The notes: a model not told the origin generated them from the sequence alone. A stretch of DNA of 35,242 nucleotides from Burkholderiales bacterium (GCA_019746155.1 JAIESJ010000049.1:1-35242); one strand, 5' to 3'. Numbered from the stretch's first letter, positions 3,603 through 25,093 are shown. Numbers and translations are program-made.

Positions 3603-3621
3603 TCGCCCGTTGACCTCTCGC

Positions 3622-8474: not shown

Positions 8475-10183
8475 TGACGACCGCACGTTCCGGGTTCACT
8501 TTGGTGCAAGCCGCGCTGGCTCTTCTGATCGCGGCCTTTCTGCTCGCTTTCCTGGTCGTGCCGGTGATCATGGTGATCTACGTCGCTTTCGCCAATCCCG
8601 ACGGCGAATTGACGTTGTCGCATTTTGCCTCGTTTTTTCAGATCTCGCTGATGCGGGAATCGTTCTGGAACAGCCTGATCGTGGCGACCCTGTCGGTGGT
8701 ATTCGCTTCGCTGATCGCGCTGCCGCTCGCCTATTTCACGGCGCGCTTCGAATTCCGCGGCGCGCTGCTGATCCAGACGCTGGGCATACTGCCGCTGATC
8801 ATGCCGCCGTTCGTCGGCGCGGTCGCGATGCAGCTCATTTTCGGGCGCAGCGGCTCGCTCAACCTGCTGCTGGGGGACTGGTTCGACATCAACCTGCCGA
8901 TCATGCAAGGCTTGAACGGCGTGATCTTCGTCGAAGCGCTGCACTACTTCCCGTTCATCCTCATGAACCTCACGGTCGCGCTCAACAATATCGACAGCTC
9001 GATGGAGGAGTCGGCGCAGAATCTCGGCGCCAGCGGCATGCGGCTGTTCCGTCGCATCGTATTCCCGCTGGCGATGCCGGGCTATGTCGCCGGCGCGGCG
9101 CTGGTGTTCATCAAGGTCTTCGACGATCTCGGCACGCCGCTCGTGCTCAACGTCACCAACATGCTGGCGCCGCAGGCGTATTTGCGCATCACCTCGGTCG
9201 GCATCGAAGACCCGATCGGCTACGTGATCAGCGTACTGATGATCGGGTTTTCGCTGCTCGCGCTGTGGGCATCCGCGCTGGTGCTGAAAGGCCGCGACTA
9301 CGCGACCCTGCAGCGCGGCTATTCCGGTCTCGCCAGGCGCCGGCTCAAGCCCTGGCAGTCGGTGATCGCCTATGGCTGGATCATCCTGGTGCTGCTGCTC
9401 GTGCTCTCGCCGCACCTCGGCATCCTGCTGTTGTCTTTCGGCAAGGTATGGAGCTTCAGCGTGCTTCCCGACAGCTTCACCCTGGAACACTACATGACCG
9501 TGGCACAGGACTCCCCGCGCATGGTCTGGAACACCATGCTCTACTGCGGGCTGGCCGCAACGCTCGATGTCATTCTTGGCACTGCGATTGCCTACCTGAT
9601 CCTGCGCACGCGGCTGCCGCTGCGGCAGTCACTGGATTTCATGGCCAGCGCCGCGCTCGCAATTCCCGGTGTCGTGCTCGCCATCGGCTATCTGCGCACC
9701 TTCAAGGGGGTGCAGCTGCCCTTCATGGACGAGATGCTGACTTCGTCATGGATACTCATCATGCTCGCCTACACGGTGCGGCGCCTGCCGTACGCGCTCC
9801 GCTCCTGTGTCGCCGCGCTGCAGCAGATGCATGTCTCTCTGGAAGAGGCGGCTGAAAATCTCGGCGCCAGCAAGCGTCGCACCATTTATCGCATCGTCGT
9901 ACCGTTGATGGCGGGCGGCATCCTCGCCGGCTTCGTCACCAGCTTCATGACCGCTGCGGTCGAGCTGTCGGCGACCATCATGCTGACCACATCGCAGACC
10001 GACGCACCGATGTCATACGGAATTTATCTTTACATGCAAAGCGCCGCGGGACGCGGTCCGGGCGCGGCGCTGGGCGTGCTCGCTGTCGTCATCGTCGCGC
10101 TCGGCACCTATTTCTCCCATCGCCTGATCCGCAGCCGCGCCGCGGGCCAGCAAGCCCGGCCGCTGCAGAAAATCGAGGTATAG
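8471..10183 (+). CDS. ABC transporter permease, FbpB-type duplicated TMD
   Basis: Two EAA motifs (MEESAQNLGAS, LEEAAENLGAS); ATGA overlap with the upstream gene. Confidence 0.92.
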   Translation: MMTTARSGFTLVQAALALLIAAFLLAFLVVPVIMVIYVAFANPDGELTLSHFASFFQISLMRESFWNSLIVATLSVVFASLIALPLAYFTARFEFRGALLIQTLGILPLIMPPFVGAVAMQLIFGRSGSLNLLLGDWFDINLPIMQGLNGVIFVEALHYFPFILMNLTVALNNIDSSMEESAQNLGASGMRLFRRIVFPLAMPGYVAGAALVFIKVFDDLGTPLVLNVTNMLAPQAYLRITSVGIEDPIGYVISVLMIGFSLLALWASALVLKGRDYATLQRGYSGLARRRLKPWQSVIAYGWIILVLLLVLSPHLGILLLSFGKVWSFSVLPDSFTLEHYMTVAQDSPRMVWNTMLYCGLAATLDVILGTAIAYLILRTRLPLRQSLDFMASAALAIPGVVLAIGYLRTFKGVQLPFMDEMLTSSWILIMLAYTVRRLPYALRSCVAALQQMHVSLEEAAENLGASKRRTIYRIVVPLMAGGILAGFVTSFMTAAVELSATIMLTTSQTDAPMSYGIYLYMQSAAGRGPGAALGVLAVVIVALGTYFSHRLIRSRAAGQQARPLQKIEV

Positions 10184-10185
10184 CC

Positions 10186-11271
10186 ATGGACGCCATGCAA
10201 AAGGTGAAGGTCGAAATCAGGAACGTGTCGCTCGCCTACGGCGCCACGCCCGTGCTGCGCGACATCAGCGTATCCATAGCGCCCGGCGAATTCTTCGCGC
10301 TGCTCGGCCCCTCGGGCTCCGGGAAATCGACGCTGTTGCGGCTGATCGCCGGATTCAACCAGGCGCAGTCAGGAACCATCATCATCGGCGGCGAAGACAT
10401 CACGCGCGTGCCGCCGTGGCAGCGCAATATCGGCATGGTGTTCCAGAACTATGCGCTGTGGCCGCACATGACGGTGAACGGCAACGTTGCCTTCGGATTG
10501 GTGGAGCGCAGGCTGCCGCGCGAAGTCATCCGCGAAAAAGTCGCCGCCGCGCTGGAACTGGTGGGGCTCAGGGATTACGGCGAACGCCGTCCCGGCCAGC
10601 TCTCCGGCGGCCAGCAGCAGCGGGTGGCGCTGGCGCGCACCATCGCCATCGAGCCCAAGGTGCTGCTGCTCGACGAGCCGCTGTCCAACCTCGACGCCAA
10701 GCTGCGTGTTCACATGCGCACCGAGCTGCTGGCGCTGCAAAGAAAGCTCGGCATCACCACGATATTCGTGACCCACGACCAGGAAGAGGCGCTGTCGATC
10801 TCCGACCGCGTCGCGGTGCTCGACGGCGGCGTGATCCAGCAGATCGGCACACCGATGGAACTCTACGACCACCCGGCGAACCGCTTTATCGCTAATTTCG
10901 TCGGCACCATCAACCTGCTGAAGGGCAAAGTCGGGCCGGCGGGCACGGGCGTGGCGTTCGATTCGCATGCGCTGGGCCGCATCACGCTGCCGCAAACGAA
11001 AGCGGCTGCCGGCGACGCCGAGATCGCGATCCGGCCGCATGCGCTGACGCTGCTGGCGTCCGGCGACAATACTGATGCAGGCCAGGTCTGGGTGGAAGGG
11101 ACCGTCGCCGAACGCGAATTTCTGGGTGAATTCGTGCGCTACACGGTGAGGGTCGGCGACACCGACCTCATCGCCGACCAGCCTCATTACAGTGGCCACC
11201 CGATCCACGTGCCCGGCAACCGCGTCAAAGTCGGCATCAATCCGGCGCAAGTCAGGCTGCTCACGGCGTAG
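10186..11271 (+). CDS. ABC transporter ATP-binding protein (PotA/FbpC-like)
   Basis: [42 protein letters not shown]-terminal TOBE-like region. Confidence 0.95.
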
Positions 11272-11315
11272 TCACACCGTGTCAGTCGACCCCCGCGCCT
11301 GTCCAGCCACACGAA

Positions 11316-11347
11316 GGGTCATCACACACGGGTGTTGACCCCGTGTG
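11316..11347. repeat. REP-like palindrome downstream of the ABC operon
   Basis: CACACGGG-tgttgac-CCCGTGTG; alternative pairing GGGTCA/TGACCC. Confidence 0.5.
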
Positions 11348-11383
11348 CATGGCCCCTGTGCGCGTGACATGGCCGGATCGAAC

Positions 11384-11437
11384 ATGAAAATCAATCCGCA
11401 GGACCTCCAAAAAATCGCCGATCTTACGCTGGCGCAC
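11384..11437 (+). pseudogene. 5' remnant of a cytoplasmic class I SAM methyltransferase
   Basis: MKINPQDLQKIADLTLAH resembles the N-terminus I recall for a proteobacterial methyltransferase family (..DLEKIADLTLEHYNQRA..); similarity stops after 18 codons. Confidence 0.45.
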
Positions 11438-11472
11438 CCGGCCGGCTCGTCAGAAATATTACTTATAAATCA

Positions 11473-12828
11473 TCATGTTATGCGTTTTCTGGCGAGCAGC
11501 GCCAGCGGCACGCCGAGCAGTAGCACGCCGATCCCGAGCTGCGCGCCGACGCTGCCCGGGTCTTTCGACATCGCATAGTTTGCGCTGGACCAGAGCATGA
11601 ACGCGCACATCGCGATGAACAGCATCGGCGTGAGCGGATACAGCGGCACGCGGAACGGGTTCCCGGAGAGCGGCTGCTGGCGCCGCAGCACGAACAGCGA
11701 CACGCCGGTCAGCATGAAGAACAGCCAGAAGGCCGGTGCGGTGTAGGCGACCATGGTCTCGAAGCCGTCCGGCGTGAACGAAGCGAGCAGCACCAGCATC
11801 AACGCCACCGCGCCCTGCAGCAGCAGCGCGTTGACCGGCGCGTTAGATTGCTCCTTCCATATGCCGAGCGCGCGGAACACCGGGAAATCGCGCCCCACCG
11901 CGTAATTGGTGCGGGCGCCGGTGAACACCGTGGCGTTGAGCGTGGACAGCGCGGCGGCAATCACGATCAGGCTCAGCACGATCGCTCCGGCATCGCCGAG
12001 CGTGGCTTTCATCAGATCGGCGGCGACGGCTTTCGACGCTTTCATGCCGTCGAGGCCCAGGACATTGAGATAGGCCAGGTTGAGCAGCACGTAGAGCACC
12101 GTGACGATGAGAATGCCCAGCACCAGGGCGCGCACGATATTGCGCCGCGCATCGCGGATTTCCGACGTGAGATAGGCCGCCTCGTTCCATCCGCCGTAAG
12201 TCAGCAGAATGAAGATCAGCGCGAGCTGCGAAAACATCGGCCCGGACGACGGCGCCGGCGCCGGCGCCGCCGGCGCGGCGCTGCCGCTCAAGCCCGCGAC
12301 GATCACGGATATCACCGCACAGGCCAGCGCGGTGGTCAGGATGGTCTGCAGCAGTTTGCTCTCGCGCGTGCCGGCGATATTGAGCACGGTGATGCCGGCG
12401 ACAGCCAGCATCGCGTAAATCACCGGACTCCTGGGTCCCAGGGCGACAAGCTGGGTCGCATAGTCGCCGAACACGAAAGCGATCGCGGCAATCGCGCCGG
12501 TTTGCACCACGCTCATGCGCGCCCAGGCAAACAGAAACGCAACCCCGCCACCGAAAGCGCGATTCAGAAAATAGTATTCACCGCCGGTATTCGGAAAAGC
12601 ACTGCCGAGTTCTGCGTAACACAGCGCGCCGACCAGCGAAATGACGCCGCCCGCGACCCACAGCGCGATGAACACCTGCTCGCTCGAGACGCTGCCGGCG
12701 ACGATCGAGGGCGCCTTGAAAATGCCAGCGCCGATCACGATGCCGACGATCATCGCCACCGCATCGAGCATGGTCAGCGTCGGCCGCGGTTGCACCGCGG
12801 CCGCGGCACGAGGTTCGCCGCTCACCAC
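11473..12828 (-). CDS. APC-family (LAT-like) amino acid/polyamine permease
   Basis: GIVIGAGIF, ALCYAELGSAFPNTGGEY, YGGWNEAAY, PFRVPLYP; ~12 TM; start overlaps the methyltransferase stop. Confidence 0.92.
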   Translation of the reverse strand: MVSGEPRAAAAVQPRPTLTMLDAVAMIVGIVIGAGIFKAPSIVAGSVSSEQVFIALWVAGGVISLVGALCYAELGSAFPNTGGEYYFLNRAFGGGVAFLFAWARMSVVQTGAIAAIAFVFGDYATQLVALGPRSPVIYAMLAVAGITVLNIAGTRESKLLQTILTTALACAVISVIVAGLSGSAAPAAPAPAPSSGPMFSQLALIFILLTYGGWNEAAYLTSEIRDARRNIVRALVLGILIVTVLYVLLNLAYLNVLGLDGMKASKAVAADLMKATLGDAGAIVLSLIVIAAALSTLNATVFTGARTNYAVGRDFPVFRALGIWKEQSNAPVNALLLQGAVALMLVLLASFTPDGFETMVAYTAPAFWLFFMLTGVSLFVLRRQQPLSGNPFRVPLYPLTPMLFIAMCAFMLWSSANYAMSKDPGSVGAQLGIGVLLLGVPLALLARKRIT

Positions 12829-13730
12829 GGCACGCTTCCATCCGTCTCCAGCGCGCTCATGCGCAGTTCACCGCGCGCCTTCAGTTGCGCCTTCCACGGC
12901 AGCGGTTTCTGCCCGCCTATCGTCACCGTGCCCTCGATGACATCATCCCTGACGCGCCCCTGGAAGCGGTGTTTAGCGAGCCCTGCGCCCTGCGGCAGCT
13001 CCGCCTCAAAGCTCACCTGATCGCCGCGCACCTGGAACAGGGGCAGGCGCGCCGGCTTGCCGTCGACCCGCGCGTCCCCGCCCACTTTCTGGAAGCTCTG
13101 ATCGAATTCAAACTCGTAGATCACGCCGCGCCCGCCAGTGTAAATCAGCGATTCCCATTTGCCGGCGATTTTTGCCGGCACGATATAGAAAAAGATGTAG
13201 CTCTTGCCGGGGTCGCCGACCTGTTTTTCCGGCACATCGAGCGTCTTCTGCTCGTCCGGATGCCATTCCCCCATGTCGTAATCGTGGGTCACCACGCGCG
13301 TGCCCGGCTTAAGTGCCAGCAGCTTGGGCCGCAGCTTCTCGTTCATCTCGGGCAGCAGGTAACTCGTAATCACGGTCGCGTGCGAAAGATCGGCCTCGAA
13401 CAGATTTTGCTCGACGAACTGCGCCCGTTCGGCGACCCCCTCCCGGCGCGCGCTTTCACGCGCTTTCTTCAGAAGGTAGGCGTCCAGGTCAACGCCGAAG
13501 CCGCGCGCGCCGAATTTTTTGGCCGCAGTGATCACGATGCGGCCGTCGCCGGAACCCAGATCGATGATGAAATCGGAGGGACCGACTTTCGCCATCTCCA
13601 GCATCTCCTCGACCACGACCTGCGGCGTCGGCACATAGACGACGTCGCCCTTGCCGTCCTGGGCCGTCGCGGACAATGCGGTCAGCGACAGCAGCAGCGT
13701 GCAAAACCGCCAACGTTTGATGAAACTCAT
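12822..13730 (-). CDS. Signal-peptide class I SAM methyltransferase (FAM173/aKMT-like), copy 1
   Basis: MSFIKRWRFCTLLLSLTALSATA-QD signal; YVPTP, IDLGSGDGRIVI, YLLPEMN, GTRVVTHDY; beta-rich C-terminal extension; AAGGAG RBS. Confidence 0.88.
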   Translation of the reverse strand: MSFIKRWRFCTLLLSLTALSATAQDGKGDVVYVPTPQVVVEEMLEMAKVGPSDFIIDLGSGDGRIVITAAKKFGARGFGVDLDAYLLKKARESARREGVAERAQFVEQNLFEADLSHATVITSYLLPEMNEKLRPKLLALKPGTRVVTHDYDMGEWHPDEQKTLDVPEKQVGDPGKSYIFFYIVPAKIAGKWESLIYTGGRGVIYEFEFDQSFQKVGGDARVDGKPARLPLFQVRGDQVSFEAELPQGAGLAKHRFQGRVRDDVIEGTVTIGGQKPLPWKAQLKARGELRMSALETDGSVPW

Positions 13731-13820
13731 CACCGCTCCTTCGTTTTCAGAAATATTACATGGCCCGTTGGCGGAGGAAAAACGCCGCCGCACCGATGAA
13801 CCCGGGTCGCCTCATCGCCG

Positions 13821-14774
13821 CTAGTTCGGCATCTGCGGCAGTTGCGGCGGCTTGAGCGAGGCGTGCGCCGGCTCCCAGAGCTCGGTACGCGTTGCGTTCC
13901 ATGCGAGCTGCCGCCCTGCCTGGTCGCGCATGATTTGCGCCTGCCCCTCGATCGCGTTATTGACGATGCGGCCGGAGAACTGGTAGCGCAGGGACGCGCC
14001 ATTGTCATTCACGACGACCGAGAAACCGATTTGAGTGCCGGCAAGCTTCGCATCCTCTATCGCGACTTTGCGGCCATCGACCTCCACCGTGCCTTCGATG
14101 TTCTGGAAATTCTGGTGGAGCGCCAGCTCGAAATTCAGCGGCTTGCCTTCCACCGGGAGCTGCCAGCGCCACTTTCCGGAGACCGTCGCCGGCATGATCC
14201 AGTAAAACACCTTGCTCCTGTGGTCGCGCCCCACCGGTTTATCGGGAGCATCGAGGATGAGCGACAGGTCCGGCGTCCATTCCCCCATGTCGTAATCATG
14301 GGAGACGATGCGCGTGCCGGGCTTGAGCATGGCGAGCAGTCTGGGGCGCACCATCAGATTGACTTCCGGCAGCAGGTAAATGGTGAGCACGGTGGCCCGG
14401 CTCACATCGGTTTCATAGAGGTCGCGCGCATAGAACTTGGCGCGGTCGGCCACACCGGCCCTGGCTGCGAGCCTGTTGCCCATCGCCACCAGCCGCTTGT
14501 CGAGATCGACGCCGAAGCCGCGCGCGCCGTATTTTTTCGCCGCGGTGATGACCATGCGCCCGTCGCCCGAGCCGAGATCGATCACATAGTCCTTCGGCCC
14601 GACCTGGGCGACTTCCAGCATCTTGTCGACGACGTTCTGCGGCGTCGGCACATAGGGCGTATCGCCGTAATCCTGGGTGAAAGCCGGCGCCGAAACGAAG
14701 CCGGTAACCAAAAACACGCCGCAAAACTTCGCGGCGATATGACTTGTCTTGCGTGCTGCCGTGCCAAATATCAT
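13821..14774 (-). CDS. Signal-peptide class I SAM methyltransferase, copy 2
   Basis: Likely ATG 14774 after AAAGG; hydrophobic stretch FCGVFLVTGFVSAPA; PYVPTP, IDLGSGDGRMVI, YLLPEVN, GTRIVSHDY. Confidence 0.85.
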   Translation of the reverse strand: MIFGTAARKTSHIAAKFCGVFLVTGFVSAPAFTQDYGDTPYVPTPQNVVDKMLEVAQVGPKDYVIDLGSGDGRMVITAAKKYGARGFGVDLDKRLVAMGNRLAARAGVADRAKFYARDLYETDVSRATVLTIYLLPEVNLMVRPRLLAMLKPGTRIVSHDYDMGEWTPDLSLILDAPDKPVGRDHRSKVFYWIMPATVSGKWRWQLPVEGKPLNFELALHQNFQNIEGTVEVDGRKVAIEDAKLAGTQIGFSVVVNDNGASLRYQFSGRIVNNAIEGQAQIMRDQAGRQLAWNATRTELWEPAHASLKPPQLPQMPN

Positions 14775-14799
14775 TGCTAAAGCCTTTCGGTTCTGAACT

Positions 14800-15134
14800 T
14801 GATTCCATCCGCCGGCAATGCGCTTCGCGTTCCAGTCGAGCCTGCCCCGGATGCGCTTGCCGGAAAGCGCGGCACTGCCGGCAATGGCGTCGCCTTCGAT
14901 CCTGCCGTCGAGCTCGTACCTGGCCGGATCGCCATTCACTTCGGCGGTGAAGTTGAAACTGATCTGGTCGCCGCGCAGCCTGGGATTCTGCAAGCTCACG
15001 CTGCGGATGCCGGGCTTGAGCTCGAGCAGCCTGGAGCGCAGCTCCAGGTTGACGCGCGGCAGCAGATACATGGTGATCACAGTCGCCTGGGAAAAATCGG
15101 TGTCGAACAGATCGCACTTCCCGAACCCCGCGAT
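14800..15134 (-). pseudogene. Degraded fourth methyltransferase paralog, open in frame with copy 2
   Basis: GFG/KC/DLFDTDFSQATVITMYLLPRVNLELRSRLLELKPG/IRSVSLQNPRLRGDQISF...WNAKR: lacks the N-terminus, motif I and the TRIVSHD...WIVPA block. Confidence 0.75.
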
Positions 15135-15322
15135 ATGAAGTTCGCAGCACGGCCAACCCTCCTTCGTCTGACAGGACCCAGCAACAATGCGGAAGCGCTA
15201 CGCTGATTTTACGGCCTGCACGGCAACCTCGCCCGCTTTGTCCAAAAGCACGACTCGCCCCGGTCGTTCAACTCTGGTAGATTGCGCGTTTACCAGAGGC
15301 GGAAATTATACCCGATAGCCTC

Positions 15323-15560
15323 GCAGCCTGTCGGACTTCGATCCGTTTGAGGCATTGCGCAGCGACACCGGACGGGTTCCTGATGAAAGCCGCGGCGACA
15401 GGCTGCCAATCAAAGGCTCAATCGAACCGCAGCCGGGAAAAGGCATAGGGTATCGCGGTCAACAGGAATGAACTTCGTCATGGATGCACTACCTCGGAAC
15501 CTGTTCTTCGTGCCTTTCATATCAGGAGCCTGCCGGGATGAGAGCCCGACAGACTCCTAG
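15323..15560. mobile_element. MITE-like non-autonomous element with imperfect terminal inverted repeats
   Basis: Left GCAGCCTGTCGGACTT versus reverse complement of the right end CTAGGAGTCTGTCGGGCTCT; ends in CTAG; internal arms 15368-15402 and 15500-15536 are also complementary; no transposase. Confidence 0.6.
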
Positions 15561-15565
15561 TTCTT

Positions 15566-17179
15566 ATGCCACTGCTCTACGCGATCGTTTTCATCTCCGG
15601 CGGCGCGATCCTGGCGCTCGAACTGCTGGCCTCGCGCATCATGACGCCCTACTTCGGCGTCAGCCTGTACATCTGGACCGGCATCCTGTCGATCACGCTG
15701 GTTTCGCTCGCGCTCGGCTACTGGGCGGGCGGCCGCTACGCCAACGGCCGTGACAGCAAGCCGCTGCCGGTCGCCCGGCTGGTACAGGGTTACGCGCTGA
15801 TGCCGGCCGTGGCCGCGCTTGCCATCGTCGCGGCCTGCCTCGTCTACCCCCATCTTTTTTCACCGCTCTCGATGTGGAGCCTGGTGTTCGGCGCTTTCGC
15901 GGCCTGCCTGATCCTGCTGTTCCTGCCGCTGGTCGCGACTTCCGCGATGAATCCGCTGCTGGTGGCCATTTTCCTGCAAAGCACCGGCAGGCAGGCAGGC
16001 GATGCCGGTGCCGGCAAGGTGTTTTTCGTGAGCACCATCGGCTCGGTCGCGGGCGTGCTCGTCACCGCATTCGGGCTGATCCCCTATACCAGCAACTTCG
16101 CCGCAACGCTGGTCGTCGCACTGACGCTGGCGCTGCTCTCGCTGGTGACCGCGGCTGTACCACCCGCACCGCTCGCTGCGCGCAAAACCATCGCTGCCAC
16201 TGCGATGACTGGCGCACTGGCTTCGGGACTGCTGCTATGGCAGGCCGACGCCTACACCGGGCGCATGGGACCGGTGAGTTATGGTGACAGCAGCTGGCGC
16301 GTCGAGGCCGCCCACGGCTCGCTGTTCGGTACGGTGAAAATCCTCAAAAGCGAGCCCGAGCGCGACTCGGGCCGTTTCCGGCGCATCTACTTTCACGACG
16401 GCCTGATCCAGAACACCGTCGATTCGAACGGCAGATCGATGTCGTTCTATACCTATGCGCTGGAAGCGCTCGCCTATGCCTACCGCCCGGAAATGCGCAC
16501 CGCGCTGGTGCTGGGAATGGGTGCCGGCATAGTGCCGATGCAGCTTACAGCGCGCGGCGTGCAAGTCGAGGCAGTGGAAATCGACCCGATCTCGCTGCGC
16601 GTCGCGCAGCGCTTCTTCGGCTTCGACCCCGCCAGGGTCCGCGTCCACCAGGCCGATGCACGCGCCTTCCTGCACCACTGTCCGCAGCGTTTTGACGTCG
16701 TGGTGCTGGATCTGTTTCACGGCGACGGCACGCCGGATTACCTGGTCACGCGGGAATTCTTTCGCGACCTGAAGCAGTGTCTCTCGAAGCGCGGCGTGGC
16801 GGTGTTCAACACTTTCGCCGATCTCGAGCGCCCGGTCAGTTACGCGCACTTTCTTGCAACCCTGCAATCCGAACTGCCGCATATCATGCTCTACCGCCCC
16901 GACTGGCCGGGGGCGACACACATCAACAGCTTCGTCGTCGCCGGTGCGGAACAACCTGCCGCGCCCGTCAAAGTCACGCTCGACTATGTGCCCGAGCGCC
17001 ACAGCGAAGCGCTATGGGCCATGCTCGCCCGCCCGATCCCGCTCAACGCATCCCTGCTGGCAGGCGGCGTGGTCGTCACCGATGCGCGCAACGCCGCCGC
17101 ACTCGACACCGCCCTGACCCAAGTCATCTACCGCCGTGCGGTAGTCGAGGCGCTTCCCAAGGAATTGCTTTTAAATTAA
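15566..17179 (+). CDS. Membrane-fused spermidine-synthase-like SAM-binding protein (7 TM plus Rossmann domain)
   Basis: SGGAILALELLASR..PYFGVSLYIW..LGYWAGG TM block, STIGSVAG; C-terminal LVLGMGAG, VEID, DARAFL, FDVVVLDLF. Confidence 0.85.
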   Translation: MPLLYAIVFISGGAILALELLASRIMTPYFGVSLYIWTGILSITLVSLALGYWAGGRYANGRDSKPLPVARLVQGYALMPAVAALAIVAACLVYPHLFSPLSMWSLVFGAFAACLILLFLPLVATSAMNPLLVAIFLQSTGRQAGDAGAGKVFFVSTIGSVAGVLVTAFGLIPYTSNFAATLVVALTLALLSLVTAAVPPAPLAARKTIAATAMTGALASGLLLWQADAYTGRMGPVSYGDSSWRVEAAHGSLFGTVKILKSEPERDSGRFRRIYFHDGLIQNTVDSNGRSMSFYTYALEALAYAYRPEMRTALVLGMGAGIVPMQLTARGVQVEAVEIDPISLRVAQRFFGFDPARVRVHQADARAFLHHCPQRFDVVVLDLFHGDGTPDYLVTREFFRDLKQCLSKRGVAVFNTFADLERPVSYAHFLATLQSELPHIMLYRPDWPGATHINSFVVAGAEQPAAPVKVTLDYVPERHSEALWAMLARPIPLNASLLAGGVVVTDARNAAALDTALTQVIYRRAVVEALPKELLLN

Positions 17180-17195
17180 AAAGTTCGACTGCATG

Positions 17196-17243
17196 TTGAC
17201 AAAACCAGCACTTCATCCCATGATGTAGATACGTGTAGATACA
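17196..17243 (+). promoter_or_regulatory. vapBC promoter with tandem antitoxin operator
   Basis: TTGACA-N17-CATGAT, immediately followed by TGTAGATAC-G-TGTAGATACA (two near-palindromes). Confidence 0.75.
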
Positions 17244-17254
17244 AGGGATGATCA

Positions 17255-17524
17255 ATGGCGACCAAGGGCTTGCGGATGGAACTGGTGGTGTCGAAGTGGG
17301 GCAACAGCCTCGCCGTGCGCTTGCCGGCGGAATCGGTCAAGAGAATCGGCGTGGGCGAGGGCGATACGCTCATTGCGGAGATCTCGGCCGACGGGCGGCT
17401 GGTCCTCGCCCCGGAAGGCCGCGCCATCGGCAAGGCCGAGTCACGCCGCCTGCGTCAATTTCTTGACCGCCAGAAGGAAACGGCGCCGGTGGTCGGGGAC
17501 ATGCGCCGCGGCGCGCGCTACTGA
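17255..17524 (+). CDS. vapB: AbrB/MazE-type antitoxin (VapB)
   Basis: VSKWGNSLAVRLP..IGVGEGD motif; TGATG overlap with the toxin. Confidence 0.9.
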   Translation: MATKGLRMELVVSKWGNSLAVRLPAESVKRIGVGEGDTLIAEISADGRLVLAPEGRAIGKAESRRLRQFLDRQKETAPVVGDMRRGARY

Positions 17525-17946
17525 TGATTTACGTCGATACGAGCGCCCTGGTTCCGGTCTTCATCCGGGAGCCGAAAAGCGAGGCCGTCATAGGCTGGCT
17601 CGAGGCCTCGGGCGAGCGTCTGGCGATCAGCGAATGGTCCCTGGTCGAGTTCGCTTCGGCCGCCGCGATCAAGGTGCGCACCGGCCAGGCGGCAGCGAGC
17701 CTGGCGAAACAGGCCACGGCGCGGGTCCACGAATTCGCGCGGAAGCATTGCACGGTGGCCGTTCCCGGAGGGGAGGAATTCCGCCGCGCCGCCGAGCTGG
17801 CGGGTGACGGCACGTTGAAGCTGAGGGCGGGCGACGCGCTTCACCTTGCCATCGCCGCGAGCCTGAGCGCACGAGGCATACTCTGCCTCGACGAGGCGAT
17901 GATTGAGAGCGCCAAGTCGCTCGGGATGAGCATTGTAACGGTTTAA
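17524..17946 (+). CDS. vapC: PIN-domain toxin VapC
   Basis: IYVDTSALV, ISEWSLVEF, LRAGDALHLAIA, CLD. Confidence 0.92.
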   Translation: MIYVDTSALVPVFIREPKSEAVIGWLEASGERLAISEWSLVEFASAAAIKVRTGQAAASLAKQATARVHEFARKHCTVAVPGGEEFRRAAELAGDGTLKLRAGDALHLAIAASLSARGILCLDEAMIESAKSLGMSIVTV

Positions 17947-17975
17947 CCGTCGATTCTCGTAACCCCCGGACTACA

Positions 17976-18048
17976 CGGGTCGGACCACGCTAAGCTTCCG
18001 TAACTTCGGCACTTTCGTTCGGGGGATATCTGGCGTTGGTCCGACCCG
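17976..18048. repeat. REP/REPIN-like inverted repeat
   Basis: CGGGTCGGACCA (17976-17987) pairs perfectly with TGGTCCGACCCG (18037-18048), extendable via CGCTA/TGGCG. Confidence 0.65.
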
Positions 18049-18217
18049 GTTATGTCTTTTGTAACATATTGTTTTTACTATATTTTTTCGAGTATCAGCT
18101 TTTGATCTTATCGGCGTTTATCCGCGTACCCCTCAAGGCACCCGTCAAGCGGGTATTGAGAAGAAAGGTATTAAAAAGAATTTATCGGCGGCTCAAAAAG
18201 CAGTAAAGCCGTACTCC

Positions 18218-19084
18218 TTACTGCAACGCCGTCTTCGCCGCACGCGTCGCCGTCCAGCGCGCGCTCTTGCCACCGCCCAGATCGACCGTGCCTTCCATTC
18301 TGTCGCCCGCAACGCGGCCCCGGAACATCTGGCGCAAGCCATCCGCAGCGATGGCAAAGCCGATGTCCTCGCCACGCAGCGTCGGCTGCAGGAGCTTGAG
18401 GTTCCTGCCCCCCGAGTTCACCGTGCCCTCGAAATTCTGATAAGTCTGCCGCAGCGCAGCCTGATAATGTGATCCTCCCGCCACCGCGATGCGCCAGTTG
18501 CCGGCGATCTTGGCCGGAACGATCCACAGATAAATCGTCGCCCGCGCCACGCCGTTGACCTTCTCCTTCTCCGGCACGTCGAAAGTAAACTCGTCGTCGT
18601 GCTGCCATTCGCCGAAATGATAGTCGTGCGACACCACGCGCGCGCCGGGCCGGAGTTCGGTATAGATCTTCGCGCTCAGATTTTTCATCATTTCCGGCAG
18701 CAGGTATAGCGTGAGCACCGTGGCGCGACTCAAATCGGCCTTAAACACGTCCCGCACCTCGAACTGCGCGCGGTCGGCGATGCCCAGCCGACTGGCTTCG
18801 TTATTGCTCAGTTTGACCAGAGCGGGATCGATGTCGACGCCGAAGCCGCGCGCCTTGTAGCGCTTTGCCGCGGTCAGCACGATCACGCCGTCGCCGGAAC
18901 CGAGATCGATGACGAAATCGTCCGGCCCGACTTTCGCCATGGCCAGCATCTGATCGACGACGACCTGCGGCGTCGGCACATATGGCCCGCCCGATCTTTC
19001 CACTTCCGCCGCGAATACCTGCGGCGCCAGCAGCGCGACGCATAACATCGCGCCGCGCGCCGCATGCTTCAAGCCTGCAAGCAT
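18218..19084 (-). CDS. Signal-peptide class I SAM methyltransferase, copy 3
   Basis: MLAGLKHAARGAMLCVALLAPQVFA-AE signal; PYVPTP, IDLGSGDGVIVL, YLLPEMM, GARVVSHDY, WIVPAKIAG. Confidence 0.88.
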   Translation of the reverse strand: MLAGLKHAARGAMLCVALLAPQVFAAEVERSGGPYVPTPQVVVDQMLAMAKVGPDDFVIDLGSGDGVIVLTAAKRYKARGFGVDIDPALVKLSNNEASRLGIADRAQFEVRDVFKADLSRATVLTLYLLPEMMKNLSAKIYTELRPGARVVSHDYHFGEWQHDDEFTFDVPEKEKVNGVARATIYLWIVPAKIAGNWRIAVAGGSHYQAALRQTYQNFEGTVNSGGRNLKLLQPTLRGEDIGFAIAADGLRQMFRGRVAGDRMEGTVDLGGGKSARWTATRAAKTALQ

Positions 19085-19112
19085 ATATGTCCCCCGGTTC
19101 CACGCGCTCAAC

Positions 19113-19940
19113 TTAAAATTCCAGCTTGTCGCCGGGATTGATCGCATGCACCTTGGTCGAGGTGCTGCCCAGCGCCTCGATGTATTCCTTGGGCGTGCCG
19201 CGCAGGAAAGGATTGGTCCCGTAGTGCATGGGGATCGCATGTTTCGGCTTCAGCCACTCGTTGGTGGCATACGCCGCATCCCTGGGGCTCAGCACGAAGC
19301 GCCCGCCGATCGGAATCATCACCAGGTCCGGCTTGTAGTAGTCGGCGATCAGCTTCATGTCGCCGAACAGTCCGGTGTCGCCCATATGATAGATCTTGAA
19401 GCCGTTCTCCAACTCAATGATGTAGCCGACCGGCTCGCCGCCGACCAGGGTTTCGGGCTTGCCCTGGGCGTTCGGCCACAGCAGTTCCGAGCTGTGCTCG
19501 GCATGCGTCTGCGTGATCTTCACGCCGGGGAAGGGATTGATGGTGCCGCTTTTGTTCATGCGCGGCGCCAGTTCGGCCGGCAGCACGCCCATCGTGGTCA
19601 GTGACTGGTTCATGCCCGCCGGCCCCCACATCGGAACCTTGTGCTTTTTGGCGAGATCGGGCGCATCGCCGAGATGGTCGCCGTGCGCGTGGGTGACCAG
19701 AATCAGGTCGATCTTGCCGACCGCATCAAGATTCTTGTATTGCTCGGGAGTCTTGGGATTTCTGGTGATCCACGGGTCGACCAGGATCACTTTGCCGCCG
19801 GGTGTGGTGATGCGCATCGCCGACTGGCCCAGCCACAGTATTTCGATTTTCCCGCTTGGCTGCGCGAACGAAACGCCCGCGGTCAGCAGCAGCGACACAC
19901 CGGCCATCAATACCAACAGATTGCGATACCAGCTTTTCAT
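19113..19940 (-). CDS. Secreted metallo-beta-lactamase-fold hydrolase (UPF0173/UlaG-like)
   Basis: Signal MKSWYRNLLVLMAGVSLLLTAGVSFA-QP; THAHGDH, AEHSS, YHMGDT, IPIGG, IPMHYGT; GGAGG RBS. Confidence 0.9.
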   Translation of the reverse strand: MKSWYRNLLVLMAGVSLLLTAGVSFAQPSGKIEILWLGQSAMRITTPGGKVILVDPWITRNPKTPEQYKNLDAVGKIDLILVTHAHGDHLGDAPDLAKKHKVPMWGPAGMNQSLTTMGVLPAELAPRMNKSGTINPFPGVKITQTHAEHSSELLWPNAQGKPETLVGGEPVGYIIELENGFKIYHMGDTGLFGDMKLIADYYKPDLVMIPIGGRFVLSPRDAAYATNEWLKPKHAIPMHYGTNPFLRGTPKEYIEALGSTSTKVHAINPGDKLEF

Positions 19941-20008
19941 GACTTCCCCCCCTCCAGGGTGGTTAAGAGCGCATAACAAAAAGACCAAGTTCAAAACAAA
20001 AAAGCATT

Positions 20009-20125
20009 AGCCACAGAGAGCACAGAGACTACAGAGGAAAAACAAACTACGAAATATGATTCGTATCTGATTGTTTTAAAAAATATTTATGGATTCTCTC
20101 TGTGAACTCTGTGTCCTCTGTGGCT
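20009..20125. repeat. Long imperfect inverted repeat built from 9-nt CACAGAG-NN units
   Basis: AGCCACAGAGAGCACAGAGACTACAGAG (20009-20036) versus CTCTGTGAACTCTGTGTCCTCTGTGGCT (20098-20125), AT-rich spacer, A/T tracts outside. Confidence 0.85.
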
Positions 20126-20150
20126 GACAGTTTTTTTATTTTTAGCCACT

Positions 20151-20918
20151 CTAAGGCTTAACAAACTTCAGCACGAACTCGTCATTCGGAATCTTCGGCT
20201 TGAATACCGACGCATCGCGCGGATCGTCCGGGTTGCGCAGGAAACCGGCTTCGCCGACCAGTTTGAAGCCCGCGGCTTCCACCTCCCGGCGCAGCACGCT
20301 TTCCTCGATGCGGTGCAGGGTCTTGCCCTCGCTCACGCCCGTGCCGGGACGCCCGGAATGGTCGGCGACAATGTACAGACCGCCCGGCTTCAGCGCCGTG
20401 AACACCGCACGGTTCATTTTATTCCGGTCGACGCCCAGCCAGACGGTGTCATGATAAACAAAATTGAACGTCACGAGGTCGAGGTTGCGCGCTTCCGGCG
20501 GCACCGGGTCGTCGAATTCGCGCACCAGGGGAACCACGTTGCGCATCGCCGGCTTTTCCAGCCGCTCGCCAAAGCGTCCTTTGACGATGTTTTCCAGAAG
20601 ATAACGGCTGTTCTGGGCGTAGACGACGCCGTCCGGCCCCACGACGCGTGCCAAAAGCTCGGTGTTGTAGCCGCCGCCCGCCCCGAGATCGAGAACGCGC
20701 ATGCCCGGCCGCACCCCGTAAAACGCCAGCAGTTTCTCCGGCTGACGACGCTGGTCGATCACCCGGTCCGCGTCGCTGCGGTCCGGGCTGTGCACCTGCC
20801 AGAAATAGAAGTTGTCCGGCAGCGGCCGCTCGGGCAGAAGACCGGCGCAGCCGCTCATGAAAAGCAGCACCGCCAATACAAACCCGTGCAGCCTGCCTTC
20901 CCCGTTTGTTTGCGTCAT
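20151..20918 (-). CDS. Predicted lipoprotein SAM methyltransferase (COG4798-like)
   Basis: FVLAVLLFMSG-C lipobox; RRQPEKLLAFYGVRPGMRVLDLGAGGGYNTELL, YHD, LKPGG, ADH, HRIEE, LRNPDD. Confidence 0.85.
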   Translation of the reverse strand: MTQTNGEGRLHGFVLAVLLFMSGCAGLLPERPLPDNFYFWQVHSPDRSDADRVIDQRRQPEKLLAFYGVRPGMRVLDLGAGGGYNTELLARVVGPDGVVYAQNSRYLLENIVKGRFGERLEKPAMRNVVPLVREFDDPVPPEARNLDLVTFNFVYHDTVWLGVDRNKMNRAVFTALKPGGLYIVADHSGRPGTGVSEGKTLHRIEESVLRREVEAAGFKLVGEAGFLRNPDDPRDASVFKPKIPNDEFVLKFVKP

Positions 20919-20936
20919 CGCCCGCCCTTCCCTTAT

Positions 20937-21158
20937 TTCCCGGTGGACATCGTGCTCGGCCACTTCGGCTACATGCGCACCGACAAAGGTCTCGGTGCGC
21001 CAGGTTTCCAGGCCCTGCTGCGCCTGATGCGCGCCAGGCGCTGCTGGGTCAGGCTCACCGGGCCATACCGGATTTCCGCGACCGATATGCCCTATCCCGA
21101 CGTCACGCCGTTCGCACACGCGCTGGTCGACGCGGCACCGGAACGCGTGATATGTTGA
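20937..21158 (+). pseudogene. Internal fragment of an amidohydrolase_2 (LigI/PDC lactonase-like) gene
   Basis: FPVDIVLGHFG..GFQALLRLM..CWVRLTGPYRIS..YPDVTPFAHALVDAAPERVI; stops where WGTDWPH is expected; no N-terminus. Confidence 0.75.
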
Positions 21159-21179
21159 AAGCTGCCGGGTGCGAACTCG

Positions 21180-23030
<1,851 letters not shown>

Positions 23031-23042
23031 GCCTCCCCGGGT

Positions 23043-24182: not shown

Positions 24183-24271
24183 ATTCCCTCCCTCAGGCAA
24201 AAAAAGGCTTCAGCACCATTCATGATCATGTTGACCGGCACCAGGGTGAGCAGCGGCCCCTCCTGAGTTTC

Positions 24272-24832
24272 TCAACAGCGTTCATTCCCCGTGGGCCGGG
24301 ATAAGCGCCCGCGTGCCGCCCGCTCGCCATCGCCGCCCGGCGCGCCGGGTTGGTTTACGCCTTGCCGCTCGAGGCAGTCTTCGCGCTCCTGCATGAGCCA
24401 ATAAACGATCCCCAGCACCAGCAGCGCGCCCGCGAGCGCGGCGATCTTGGGGGCCCCAATCTCGAGATCGAGGATGATGAACTTGCGCGCTACCGCGAGC
24501 ATGGCTATCAGGATCACGGTTTTGACCTGAACGATATGGTCCCGCCGCAGCGCCACGCGGATGATCGAGTGCTTGAACTCCATTGCGATGAGCAGCGTCA
24601 TGATCATCCCGAATATCGTCTGAAACACGGCATGGTCGAGCGGGCTTAAAGCCTCGACGGCAAGCAGGAGTACGACCGCGCGGACGAGCTGAAGCAGCGA
24701 AATCATGACGATGACCGAGATCACGCCCGCCAGGATCATCGCGACGACCTGCTCGTAGCGCTCGTAGACCGTCATGATCCGCCATTGCCTGCGGAACTCC
24801 GTGAGCTGCCGATGTGTTCCGGTATCGTTCAT
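24272..24832 (-). CDS. PsiE-family membrane protein
   Basis: YERYEQVVA, FGMIMTLLIAMEFKHSI, VKTVILIAMLAVARKFIILD; 4 TM. Confidence 0.85.
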   Translation of the reverse strand: MNDTGTHRQLTEFRRQWRIMTVYERYEQVVAMILAGVISVIVMISLLQLVRAVVLLLAVEALSPLDHAVFQTIFGMIMTLLIAMEFKHSIIRVALRRDHIVQVKTVILIAMLAVARKFIILDLEIGAPKIAALAGALLVLGIVYWLMQEREDCLERQGVNQPGAPGGDGERAARGRLSRPTGNERC

Positions 24833-25046
24833 CGTTCTTGTTTGTGTCGGATGCGGAAATTTTCGGAATCCGTTTTGCTCGTGACAAGCACATTTCTCTT
24901 GGTACCCGCCTCATGATACCAGCATCAAGCCATTACCTGTATTCGACCCCGGCACGCTTCAAGATTGTTTCGTTTTCCGTCATCGGTCACACTCACAGCG
25001 CGCGGCGCGGGTTAAAGGCAAGCTCGCGCGCCATCGTTTCATCAGG

Positions 25047-25093
25047 CTCGGAGAGGGCGATCTGAAAGGCGGTAGTCAGCTTATCGAGCACAT
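25047..25093 (-). pseudogene. clpB: clpB 5'-end scar
   Basis: ATG-TG-CTC GAT AAG CTG ACT ACC GCC TTT CAG ATC GCC CTC TCC GAG = M(x)LDKLTTAFQIALSE with a 1-nt frameshift; resembles the ClpB start MRLDKLTTKFQ.AL.DA and sits 35 nt behind a sigma32 promoter. Confidence 0.6.

What the first reader, a model, noticed from the sequence alone, without database searches (positions are those of the whole stretch)
11473..20918. Candidate extracytoplasmic methylation system: five apparently exported SAM-binding proteins with a coupled APC permease
Seen: three paralogous class I methyltransferases (12822, 13821, 18218) each start with a signal-peptide-like segment. An unrelated methyltransferase (20151) has a lipobox, a SpeE-like Rossmann domain follows 7 TM helices, an MBL hydrolase has a signal peptide, and the last methyltransferase overlaps the start of an APC permease. 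Known: SAM is made in the cytoplasm, and the (P/Y)VPTP...DLGSGDG..V signature is that of FAM173 (ATPSCKMT/ANTKMT) and archaeal aKMT protein-lysine methyltransferases. Inference: a periplasmic methylation or SAM/SAH-handling pathway in which the permease exchanges SAM/SAH or a methylated amino acid or amine. I know of no characterised system with this layout.
Basis: partly seen in the sequence, partly recalled or inferred. Interest (0 to 1): 0.8.

Follow-up and report, generated by a model that had tools for sequence, protein, structure and literature searches.

The report
Exported methyltransferase array with partner exchanger
This freshwater betaproteobacterium carries a conserved gene cluster of lysine-methyltransferase-like enzymes that all bear export signals, next to one amino-acid exchanger, which points to an undescribed methylation system outside the cytoplasm, where the methyl donor SAM is not known to occur.

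Summary
Window 11473-20918 holds three paralogous aKMT-like class I methyltransferases (MTs), each with a Sec-type signal peptide and a C-terminal 8-strand barrel. It also holds the relic of a fourth copy, a 7-TM protein with a SpeE-like domain predicted to face the periplasm, an exported MBL hydrolase, a lipoprotein MT, and a LAT-type APC permease whose start overlaps the last MT's stop.

The layout recurs. In related loci, 42 of 52 evaluable ones have the APC directly after the MT array. In 301 genomes of the order, 46 carry both genes, 12 the MT only and 3 the APC only. Adjacency persists in other classes of the phylum, in either gene order. SAM-binding and catalytic motifs are kept in about 300 or more of 318 copies.

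Best reading: an extracytoplasmic SAM-dependent N-methylation system whose single exchanger supplies SAM and removes SAH. Export and transport are inferred, not shown. The MBL hydrolase and lipoprotein MT are accessory.

This scan reached the same reading on at least five other genomes. I found no paper describing it.

The parts
11473..12828 (-). LAT-type APC permease, 451 aa from the GTG at 12828, or 450 aa from the GTG at 12825. It is the only transporter conserved with the MT family.
   Evidence: Pfam AA_permease_2 at 2.8e-48. TIGR00911, 199 bits, below its cut-off of 701.8. The nearest solved chains are SLC7 light chains (xCT 1e-52, b0,+AT, y+LAT, LAT1) and bacterial 6f2g at 2.6e-43. The N-terminus aligns with 29 orthologues.
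12822..13730 (-). MT1, 302 aa: signal peptide, aKMT-like seven-beta-strand MT domain and a C-terminal 8-strand barrel. It belongs to the APC-adjacent orthogroup.
   Evidence: AF2 model with pLDDT 89.6. 5bxy and aKMT have TM 0.87-0.91 over the MT domain. Barrel model with pLDDT 90.7, Z 10-11 to avidins, the Cap15 barrel and designed barrels. Of 54 APC-adjacent copies, 45 fall in one clade of 59, with weak support of 0.46.
12822..12828 (-). Overlap between the MT1 stop and the APC start. This suggests translational coupling.
   Evidence: Read directly from the sequence. In 21 of 42 related loci a start codon sits at the 4-nt-overlap position. Most of the others are within 86 nt.
13821..14774 (-). 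MT2, 317 aa, with the same three-part architecture.
14826..15137 (-). Relic of the array's first copy, the orthogroup that lies next to the SpeE-like gene. It lacks the signal peptide and motif I and has an internal deletion of about 70 residues. It is in frame with MT2.
   Evidence: (56% identity over query residues 105-149). In one search the two pieces align to about residues 78-121 and 194-257 of intact orthologues, and 37 of the top 40 domain hits belong to the SpeE-adjacent class.
15272..15334 (-). Promoter-like site (15334-15305) followed by an 8-bp inverted repeat (15298-15272), in the divergent region between the MT array and the SpeE-like gene.
   Evidence: 10 of 12 consensus matches. 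The region's total of 3 such sites does not exceed the shuffles (2.1 +/- 1.7). The repeat was read. This evidence is weak.
15566..17179 (+). Seven-TM membrane domain fused to a SpeE-like Rossmann domain, 537 aa. It is transcribed divergently from the MT array.
   Evidence: NF037959, 172.4 bits against a cut-off of 40. Six strong TM segments. Across 34 homologues the seventh segment (209-225) has mean hydropathy 2.07, and K/R per sequence is 6.7 in the even loops against 1.6 in the odd loops. This implies N-in and C-terminal domain out. The glycine loop has no acidic residue in 34 of 34.
17255..17946 (+). VapB-like antitoxin (17255-17524) and PIN-domain VapC-like toxin (17524-17946), inserted between the SpeE-like gene and MT3. 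It is not part of the system.
   Evidence: Pfam MazE_antitoxin at 2.2e-12 and PIN at 5.3e-11. None of the 64 related loci gave a VapB or VapC match.
18218..19084 (-). MT3, 288 aa, with the same architecture. It belongs to the orthogroup found beyond the SpeE-like gene.
   Evidence: Of 20 copies in this position, 18 fall in one clade of 22, support 0.935. A copy is present in this position in 20 of 30 loci with enough flank.
19113..19940 (-). Exported MBL-fold hydrolase of the UPF0173 type, 275 aa. Accessory.
   Evidence: NF001911, 218.7 bits against a cut-off of 144. Signal-like N-terminus. Present in 5 of 24 loci with enough flank.
20151..20918 (-). Lipoprotein class I MT, 255 aa, unrelated to the aKMT-like paralogues. 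Accessory.
   Evidence: Pfam and NCBIfam give only generic MT matches. The best solved relative is 3dh0 at 3.9e-9. Among 120 homologues, 97 have a strict lipobox, 17 more have a near variant, and 6 lack the N-terminus. Present in 4 of 24 loci.

Best explanation
This is a conserved extracytoplasmic methylation module.

1. The aKMT-type methyltransferases are made with cleavable Sec signal peptides and exported unfolded, so they cannot carry the cofactor with them. They fold in the periplasm as a SAM-binding seven-beta-strand domain joined to a small calycin/avidin-like barrel.
2. The single LAT-type APC exchanger, co-transcribed and probably translationally coupled with the last MT, exports cytoplasmic SAM and takes back SAH (or another amino acid). 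This gives both cofactor supply and product removal for all copies.
3. The MTs N-methylate primary amines in the envelope. By kinship with aKMT the most likely targets are protein lysines. Alternatively the target is a small amine or lipid held by the barrel. The old, position-specific paralogues take different targets.
4. In this lineage a 7-TM protein with a SpeE-like domain predicted to face the periplasm belongs to the same cluster. The exported MBL hydrolase and the lipoprotein MT are occasional additions.

**Shown here:** the gene content, the signal-like N-termini, the motif conservation, the folds, and the adjacency and co-occurrence.

**Inferred:** export, SAM use, the nature of the targets, and SAM/SAH exchange.
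For: **Export features**
- 216 of 242 MT copies in 64 related loci pass a crude signal rule. The same rule passes 3 of 3 periplasmic and 0 of 11 cytoplasmic window proteins.
- K/R precedes the hydrophobic core, and an acidic mature N-terminus follows it.
- The next in-frame Met of MT1 lies inside the conserved domain.
- Mature regions are Cys-poor: 0.133%, with 230 of 318 copies having none, against 0.687% in 11 cytoplasmic window proteins.

**Enzyme character**
- aKMT model at E 4e-35. Solved chains 5bxy at 3e-45 and 5fa8 at 4.6e-36. TM 0.87-0.91.
- Conservation among 318 copies: every position of motif I in at least 313; the acidic residue at the end of strand 2 in 318; the H-D-(Y/F) motif in 302, 284 and 299; the following Trp in 318.

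**Coupling to the APC**
- Overlapping stop and start codons.
- The APC directly follows the array in 42 of 52 evaluable loci.
- Adjacency in 9 of 16 loci from other families, in 5 of 5 further genomes, and in 6 of 10 loci from other classes, in either gene order.
- In 301 genomes of the order: both genes 46, MT only 12, APC only 3, neither 240.
- 46 of 49 APC-positive genomes have one APC match, whatever the MT copy number, which runs from 1 to about 14. That fits a shared co-substrate.

**Exchanger character and SAM source**
- The nearest solved relatives are SLC7/LAT light chains and bacterial 6f2g. By my recall these are obligate exchangers.
- The genome makes its own SAM: metK at 609.5 bits, above its cut-off.

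**Old paralogues**
- Positions in the array correspond to clades: 35 of 40 (support 0.994) and 18 of 20 (support 0.935).
Against: - No experiment and no dedicated predictor (SignalP, DeepTMHMM) was available. The signal rule is my own and crude.
- Twelve of 58 MT-positive genomes have no APC orthologue at E<=1e-90.
- Ten of 52 evaluable loci, and 4 of 10 loci in other classes, have an MT without the APC. Around 17 such loci, of which the 69 ORFs nearest the MT were scanned, no other transporter family recurs.
- To my knowledge no LAT-family member is known to carry SAM (recalled).
- SAM is small enough to leak through porins, so a periplasmic pool would be costly (inference).
- No SAM or SAH riboswitch lies in the window.
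- The genome counts involve related genomes, which are not independent.
- The clade of APC-adjacent copies has weak support, 0.46.
Confidence: 0.45

Rival explanations
1. The MTs are exported and active, but the APC carries the methyl acceptor or the methylated product (an amino acid or amine) rather than SAM. SAM reaches the periplasm by some other route.
For: The APC family carries amino acids and amines. The barrel could hold a small ligand. Twelve of 58 MT-positive genomes lack this APC.
Against: The two-gene MT+APC modules (L067, L068, L080, L082, L089) contain no other candidate for supplying SAM. One APC serves from 1 to about 14 diverged paralogues, which fits a shared co-substrate better than many different products. 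No second transporter recurs near the MTs.
Confidence: 0.2
2. The N-terminal hydrophobic segments only tether the MTs to the inner membrane, and the catalytic domain stays in the cytoplasm, where SAM is available. There it would act on the permease or on imported amino acids. FAM173 enzymes are similarly anchored by an N-terminal membrane segment.
For: SAM is cytoplasmic. The review PMC9006661 (passages) describes FAM173B as a non-conserved N-terminus, then a transmembrane domain, then the MTase domain. No export experiment exists.
Against: K/R lies before the hydrophobic core and acidic residues after it. Small-x-small sites precede a conserved Gln. The mature parts are Cys-poor. Twelve of the 150 distant representatives carry long Lys/Pro/Glu-rich linkers. 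The neighbouring MBL hydrolase and lipoprotein MT also carry export signals.
Confidence: 0.12
3. The exported MT-fold proteins are binding proteins rather than enzymes. They capture external SAM or another adenosyl compound and pass it to the APC for uptake.
For: The SAM-binding motifs are conserved, and the proteins sit next to a transporter.
Against: The genome has metK. The H-D-(Y/F) motif shared with aKMT, which lies beyond the cofactor-binding motifs, is kept in 284-302 of 318 copies. Up to about 14 diverged, position-specific paralogues make little sense for a single ligand. To my knowledge APC carriers do not use binding proteins (recalled).
Confidence: 0.08
4. The MT methylates the permease itself (or other envelope transporters), as FAM173A methylates the ADP/ATP carrier. 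On this view adjacency reflects an enzyme-target relation.
For: The mitochondrial relatives of aKMT methylate membrane transport proteins (PMC9006661, passages). The two genes are tightly coupled.
Against: No lysine is invariant or nearly invariant among 30 APC orthologues. One APC against many paralogues. The supply of SAM still goes unexplained.
Confidence: 0.07
5. There is no functional system. The neighbourhood is inherited synteny among close relatives.
For: Most of the 64 loci come from related Burkholderiales MAGs. The ABC transporter next door is also syntenic in close relatives only.
Against: Adjacency survives changes of gene order and of class. It holds in at least 13 families. The two genes co-occur in 46 genomes against 15 discordant ones out of 301.
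Confidence: 0.03

Closest known systems
aKMT (aKMT4), the broad-specificity protein-lysine methyltransferase of Sulfolobus islandicus (PDB 5fa8, 5fad, 5jwj; NCBIfam NF041081), and the Salinibacter ruber structural-genomics protein 5bxy
   Same: The same seven-beta-strand core: 43-51% identity over about 130-155 residues, TM 0.87-0.91. The N-terminal Y-V-P-T-P stretch, motif I and the H-(D/E)-(Y/F)...W motif are shared.
   Different: aKMT is a roughly 160-residue protein with no signal peptide and no extra domain. These proteins add a Sec signal and an 8-strand barrel, score below the family cut-off (121 against 200 bits), occur in tandem arrays, and are linked to a permease.
FAM173A/ANTKMT and FAM173B/ATPSCKMT, served by the mitochondrial SAM carrier SLC25A26
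   Same: They are relatives of aKMT with an N-terminal membrane segment (PMC9006661, passages). They work in a compartment that must import SAM through a carrier, which by my recall exchanges SAM for SAH.
   Different: The carrier family differs (mitochondrial carrier against APC/LAT), as do the compartment and the targets. I did not compare sequences with FAM173 directly.
Plant Golgi-lumen methyltransferases with putative Golgi SAM transporters (preprint 10.1101/2021.07.06.451061; I saw only the start of the abstract in the listing)
   Same: Methylation on the non-cytosolic side of a membrane that depends on SAM being carried across it.
   Different: It is eukaryotic, uses MFS carriers and acts on polysaccharides. 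The enzymes are not of the aKMT type.
SLC7/LAT amino-acid exchangers and the bacterial homologue 6f2g
   Same: These are the best solved matches to the APC, at E 1e-52 to 1e-38 over nearly its full length.
   Different: TIGR00911 scores 199 bits against a cut-off of 701.8, so this is a separate subfamily. No LAT is known to me to carry SAM. By my recall, yeast Sam3 and E. coli MmuP are APC-superfamily carriers of sulfonium amino acids.
Outer-membrane protein lysine methyltransferases: rickettsial PKMT1/2 and KmtA of Acinetobacter sp. Tol 5 (PMC11784438, abstract read)
   Same: They show that bacterial surface proteins can carry many methyl-lysines.
   Different: They belong to an unrelated enzyme family. 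The abstract says nothing of export signals or a partner transporter.
Secreted METTL9 (preprint 10.64898/2025.12.23.696137; start of the abstract seen in the listings)
   Same: A methyltransferase acting outside the cell. The abstract calls it the first secreted methyltransferase.
   Different: It is an animal enzyme that methylates histidine, and it has no dedicated carrier.

Membership tests
aKMT / NF041081 archaeal protein-lysine N-methyltransferase | Score at or above the curated NCBIfam cut-off of 200 bits | tested here: not met
   121, 118.6 and 102.7 bits for MT1, MT2 and MT3
aKMT / NF041081 archaeal protein-lysine N-methyltransferase | Seven-beta-strand fold with SAM-binding motif I and the post-strand-4 H-(D/E)-(Y/F) motif | tested here: met
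   Conserved in 284-318 of 318 copies.
aKMT / NF041081 archaeal protein-lysine N-methyltransferase | Single-domain cytoplasmic protein of about 160 residues | tested here: not met
   A signal-like N-terminus and a C-terminal barrel of about 110 residues
aKMT / NF041081 archaeal protein-lysine N-methyltransferase | Methylation of protein lysines with SAM | not testable with these tools
   Needs an enzyme assay
FAM173 (ANTKMT/ATPSCKMT) | Direct sequence kinship with FAM173A/B | not tested
The kinship is indirect, through aKMT (PMC9006661).
FAM173 (ANTKMT/ATPSCKMT) | An N-terminal membrane segment before the MTase domain | tested here: inconclusive
   A hydrophobic N-terminal segment is present, but it looks like a cleavable signal rather than an anchor.
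Sec-exported proteins | A tripartite signal: a basic n-region, a hydrophobic core, and small-x-small before the mature part | tested here: met
   Crude rule: 216 of 242 copies. Controls: 3 of 3 periplasmic and 0 of 11 cytoplasmic. SignalP was not available.
APC superfamily, LAT/SLC7 branch | Pfam AA_permease_2 above the gathering score, with SLC7 chains as nearest solved relatives | tested here: met
   165.3 bits against 27. xCT 1e-52 down to Asc-1 1.2e-38.
APC superfamily, LAT/SLC7 branch | TIGR00911 subfamily cut-off of 701.8 bits | tested here: not met
   199.2 bits
APC superfamily, LAT/SLC7 branch | Obligate exchange | not testable with these tools
   Needs a transport assay
Fused MFS/spermidine synthase, NF037959 | Score above the curated cut-off of 40 bits | tested here: met
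   172.4 bits and 169.1 bits
Spermidine synthase proper (TIGR00417, PRK00811) | Equivalog cut-offs, and the acidic residue in the glycine-rich loop that, by my recall, selects decarboxylated SAM | tested here: not met
   39.6 against 249.55 bits and 51.2 against 260 bits. The loop has no acidic residue in 34 of 34 homologues. The meaning of that residue is recalled, not tested.
UPF0173 metal-dependent hydrolase, NF001911 | Score above the cut-off of 144 bits | tested here: met
   218.7 bits. It also has a signal-like N-terminus.
Calycin/avidin-like 8-strand barrels | Eight antiparallel up-and-down strands closing a barrel | tested here: met
   Model with pLDDT 90.7 and eight strands. Z 10.2-11.2 to designed barrels, the Cap15 barrel and avidins.
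Calycin/avidin-like 8-strand barrels | Kinship with a named family (lipocalin, avidin or FABP) | tested here: inconclusive
   Foldseek found no match at E<=1e-3. No Pfam family covers the region.

The most novel reading that the evidence does not exclude
Some Gram-negative bacteria keep a periplasmic SAM economy. A LAT-type SAM/SAH antiporter feeds arrays of Sec-exported, aKMT-related N-methyltransferases, and in this lineage also a membrane-bound SpeE-like enzyme. These enzymes methylate lysines of envelope proteins, or amines and lipids, outside the cytoplasm. That would be the first bacterial extracytoplasmic methylation system and the first SAM carrier in the LAT family.
Probability: 0.35. 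Interest if true: 0.9.

Novelty: categorically new. Interest (0 to 1): 0.8.

Why it matters
SAM-dependent methylation in bacteria is treated as a cytoplasmic process. This family is very large. It has 1,228 clusters at 50% identity with E<=1e-30 and 6,198 with E<=1e-10. In two call-8000-candidate searches nearly every scored protein matched.

If these enzymes really work in the periplasm, three things follow. There must be an unrecognised route for SAM across the inner membrane. There is a new class of envelope modification. And there are dozens of unassigned enzyme specificities.

The MT+APC pair gives a simple, testable two-gene handle on the question. Several complete genomes carry just one MT and one APC.

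Tried and rejected
- **Complex prediction** of the APC with mature MT1 (after three queue refusals at 64, 66 and 69). The verdict was 'no answer' with score 0.00. This is not evidence either way.
- **Rfam** at gathering thresholds over the whole window found 0 matches. At E<=1 over 11000-21500 there were only four miRNA-family matches below their thresholds, and these mark hairpins. No SAM or SAH riboswitch was found.
- **Sequencing runs.** No RNA holder was listed, so no expression test was made and no reads were laid.
- **Names for distant representatives.** All ten clusters looked up are metagenomic, with generic or misleading names such as 'protein-L-isoaspartate O-methyltransferase' and 'mycolic acid cyclopropane synthetase'. 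The ESM Atlas gave only generic MT cluster names.
- **A substitute transporter.** I looked for one next to MT genes that lack the APC, in 17 loci, scanning 69 ORFs of the 134 called. None recurs. The neighbours are TctC receptors, amidohydrolases, Rrf2 regulators and housekeeping genes.
- **The ABC transporter with DUF3422** (5733-11271) as part of the system. I rejected this, because it is syntenic only in close relatives.
- **Foldseek on the barrel alone** found nothing at E<=1e-3.
- **Literature.** The six-phrase search returned 65 papers, of which 30 were listed. Among those, the only hits were for 'secreted methyltransferase' and for words beginning 'periplasmic sam'. None held 'periplasmic methyltransferase', 'extracytoplasmic methyltransferase', 'exported methyltransferase' or 'extracellular methyltransferase'. 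Searches found no description of this family either. The library lacks most subscription journals, so this is not proof of absence.
- **A failed call.** One search failed on a term containing a slash. I re-sent it without that term.

Full report
**1. What is there**

On the minus strand the window carries, in order of transcription:
- a lipoprotein MT (20151-20918);
- an exported MBL hydrolase (19113-19940);
- MT3 (18218-19084).

On the plus strand it carries a VapBC pair (17255-17946) and a 537-aa membrane protein with a SpeE-like domain (15566-17179).

On the minus strand again it carries the relic of an MT (about 14826-15137), MT2 (13821-14774), MT1 (12822-13730) and an APC permease (11473-12828).

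G+C is 0.59-0.65 here, like the rest of the window. Residue numbers below follow the 303-residue query window:12822-13733. The real MT1 is one residue shorter and is identical to a 302-aa database protein.

**2. The methyltransferases**

MT1-3 hit only generic MT families in Pfam. They match the archaeal protein-lysine MT model NF041081 at E 4e-35, 2.1e-34 and 1.8e-29. The scores of 121, 118.6 and 102.7 bits are all under the 200-bit cut-off.

The nearest solved chains are 5bxy (E 3e-45) and aKMT 5fa8 and 5jwj (E 4.6e-36 and 6.5e-35). An AF2 model (pLDDT 89.6, pTM 0.82) superposes on 5bxy and aKMT with target TM 0.87-0.91.

Behind the MT core sits a domain of about 110 residues. Modelled alone (pLDDT 90.7), it is an eight-strand antiparallel barrel.
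- Foldseek finds nothing at E<=1e-3.
- The all-against-all aligner gives Z 10.2-11.2 to designed barrels, the Cap15 barrel and avidins.
- It has a Gly-x-Trp in the first strand (318 of 318 for the Trp). By my recall that is the calycin hallmark.

Conservation across 318 copies from 91 loci:
- every position of motif I is kept in at least 313;
- the acidic residue at the end of strand 2 in 318;
- H150 in 302, D151 in 284, Y/F152 in 299 and W157 in 318.

So these look like working SAM-dependent enzymes.

**3. Export signals**

Each MT begins with K/R, then a hydrophobic core, then small-x-small followed by Gln and an acidic stretch.

I used a crude rule: a 10-residue hydropathy of at least 2.0, K/R before the core, and small-x-small after it.
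- It passes MT1-3, the MBL hydrolase and the lipoprotein MT.
- It passes 3 of 3 periplasmic window proteins and 0 of 11 cytoplasmic ones.

In the 64 related loci, 277 MT domains were found. Of these, 24 lacked the N-terminal motif under my pattern, 7 were N-truncated and 4 sat at an edge. Of the remaining 242, 216 pass the rule.

The 150 best representatives of the 50%-identity library divide as follows:
- 73 pass;
- 16 fail, although most of these look signal-like by eye;
- 12 have long Lys/Pro/Glu-rich linkers;
- 12 lack a Met start;
- 37 lack the motif pattern.

Mature parts are Cys-poor. The frequency is 0.133%, and 230 of 318 copies have none, against 0.687% in 11 cytoplasmic window proteins. 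I saw no twin-arginine consensus by eye. Sec export of an unfolded chain would rule out carrying SAM along.

**4. The permease and its linkage**

The APC's best solved relatives are SLC7 light chains and bacterial 6f2g. TIGR00911 scores 199 bits, far under its cut-off, so this is a separate LAT-like subfamily. Its N-terminus aligns with 29 orthologues, which fixes the start at one of two GTG codons. The start therefore overlaps the MT1 stop by 4 or 7 nt.

Linkage in the 64 loci from one-genome-per-species contigs:
- 12 end too soon to judge;
- 42 of the other 52 have the APC straight after the last MT;
- in 21 of those 42 a start codon sits at the 4-nt-overlap position.

Linkage in 301 genomes of the order:
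- the MT is found in 58 (E<=1e-20) and this APC in 49 (E<=1e-90);
- 46 have both, 12 the MT only, 3 the APC only and 240 neither;
- at least 13 families have both.

These tallies include G205 (both genes) and G026 (MT only), which are flagged unpublished.

Comparing the coordinates, the APC lies within about 250 nt of an MT in 28 genomes other than G000. G205 is left out of that count.

Adjacency also holds in 9 of 16 fetched loci of other families. It holds in 6 of 10 loci from 9 genomes of other classes or orders of the phylum, with either gene first. Related genomes are not independent, so these counts overstate the statistical weight.

Forty-six of 49 APC-positive genomes have one APC match, while MT copies run from 1 to about 14 (L074/L075, L079).

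**5. The wider cluster**

The usual layout is: [lipoprotein MT, MBL hydrolase,] MT3, then the SpeE-like gene on the other strand, then 3-6 MTs, then the APC.
- The SpeE-like gene bounds the array in 30 of 42 APC loci. Eleven run to an edge and one is bounded otherwise.
- Arrays hold 3 copies (4 loci), 4 (2 loci), 5 (15 loci) or 6 (9 loci).
- An MT3-position copy is present in 20 of 30 loci.
- The MBL hydrolase is present in 5 of 24 loci and the lipoprotein MT in 4 of 24.

The window therefore has the smallest array seen: two intact copies plus a relic of the first one.

Positions in the array map to clades. Thirty-five of 40 SpeE-adjacent copies fall in a clade of 38 (support 0.994). Eighteen of 20 MT3-position copies fall in a clade of 22 (support 0.935). 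Forty-five of 54 APC-adjacent copies fall in a clade of 59 (support 0.46). The paralogues are therefore old and individually kept.

The SpeE-like protein has seven hydrophobic segments. K/R per sequence is 6.7 in the even loops against 1.6 in the odd loops, over 34 homologues. This puts its Rossmann domain outside. Its glycine loop lacks an acidic residue in 34 of 34. By my recall this argues against decarboxylated SAM as its ligand.

**6. Reading**

The minimal conserved unit is an exported aKMT-like MT with a barrel plus one LAT-like exchanger.
- Any periplasmic SAM enzyme needs SAM brought in and SAH removed.
- The exchanger is the only conserved candidate. There is one per genome whatever the MT number, and the genome has metK.

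I therefore favour SAM/SAH exchange feeding envelope N-methylation, with confidence 0.45 for the whole model. The rivals and the counter-evidence are listed in their own sections. The main weaknesses are these:
- there is no experiment;
- 12 MT-positive genomes lack this APC;
- MT loci without the APC show no substitute transporter;
- no SAM-carrying LAT is known.

**7. Novelty**

The phrase searches found no description. A review notes only that aKMT has alpha-proteobacterial homologues (PMC9006661). The closest analogues are organellar: mitochondria (FAM173 enzymes with a SAM carrier) and the plant Golgi.

This scan has reported the same family and the same reading on at least five other genomes. 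Those are AI notes and not independent evidence. What I checked here agrees with them.

New in this window:
- the reduced array with a relic;
- the VapBC insertion;
- the outside-facing prediction for the SpeE-like domain;
- the accessory status of the MBL hydrolase and the lipoprotein MT.

Noticed in passing
window 14826-15137 (-): Pseudogene relic of the first MT of the array, in frame with and upstream of MT2. It has lost its N-terminal part and about 70 internal residues. This genome's array is the shortest among the loci compared.
   Followed up: yes
window 17255-17946 (+): A VapB/VapC (PIN) toxin-antitoxin pair with its own promoter-like site (17196-17224), inserted between the SpeE-like gene and MT3. 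None of the 64 related loci has it there.
   Followed up: partly
window 19975-20155 (-): An AT-rich intergenic stretch between the lipoprotein MT and the MBL gene folds into a long hairpin (-58.7 kcal/mol, z -6.18, 0 of 200 shuffles as good). It drew sub-threshold miRNA-family matches on both strands. It could be a terminator, a repeat element or a small mobile element.
   Followed up: partly
window 3144-5630 and 21180-26900: The cluster sits among protein-quality-control genes: HSP20 and HtpG on one side, and FtsH, a DegP-like protease, PsiE and two HSP20 genes on the other. By my recall this resembles the heat-resistance / protein-quality-control islands of other proteobacteria.
   Followed up: no
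window 5733-11271 (+): An ABC uptake operon (SBP_bac_6 binding protein, double permease, ATPase with a TOBE domain) has a DUF3422 gene (7176-8474, 568 bits) inserted, whose end overlaps the permease start. It is syntenic with the APC only in close relatives.
   Followed up: partly
L065 (G000:C253) 8720-9649 (+): A fourth intact paralogue elsewhere in the genome. It stands alone, has a signal-like N-terminus, and carries a divergent version of the N-terminal motif.
   Followed up: partly
L074/L075 (G015) and L079 (G123): One family of the order carries about 13-14 tandem MT copies between the SpeE-like gene and the APC, interrupted by an unrelated stretch of about 4.6 kb.
   Followed up: partly
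window 15272-15334 (-): A promoter-like site with a perfect -10 hexamer, followed by an 8-bp inverted repeat with an 11-nt spacer, in the divergent control region. It may be an operator. I did not check its conservation.
   Followed up: no
P0242, P0244, P0101 and others: Some family members are single polypeptides of 500-620 residues with two or three MT domains. At least some of these may be read-through of tandem genes rather than true fusions.
   Followed up: no
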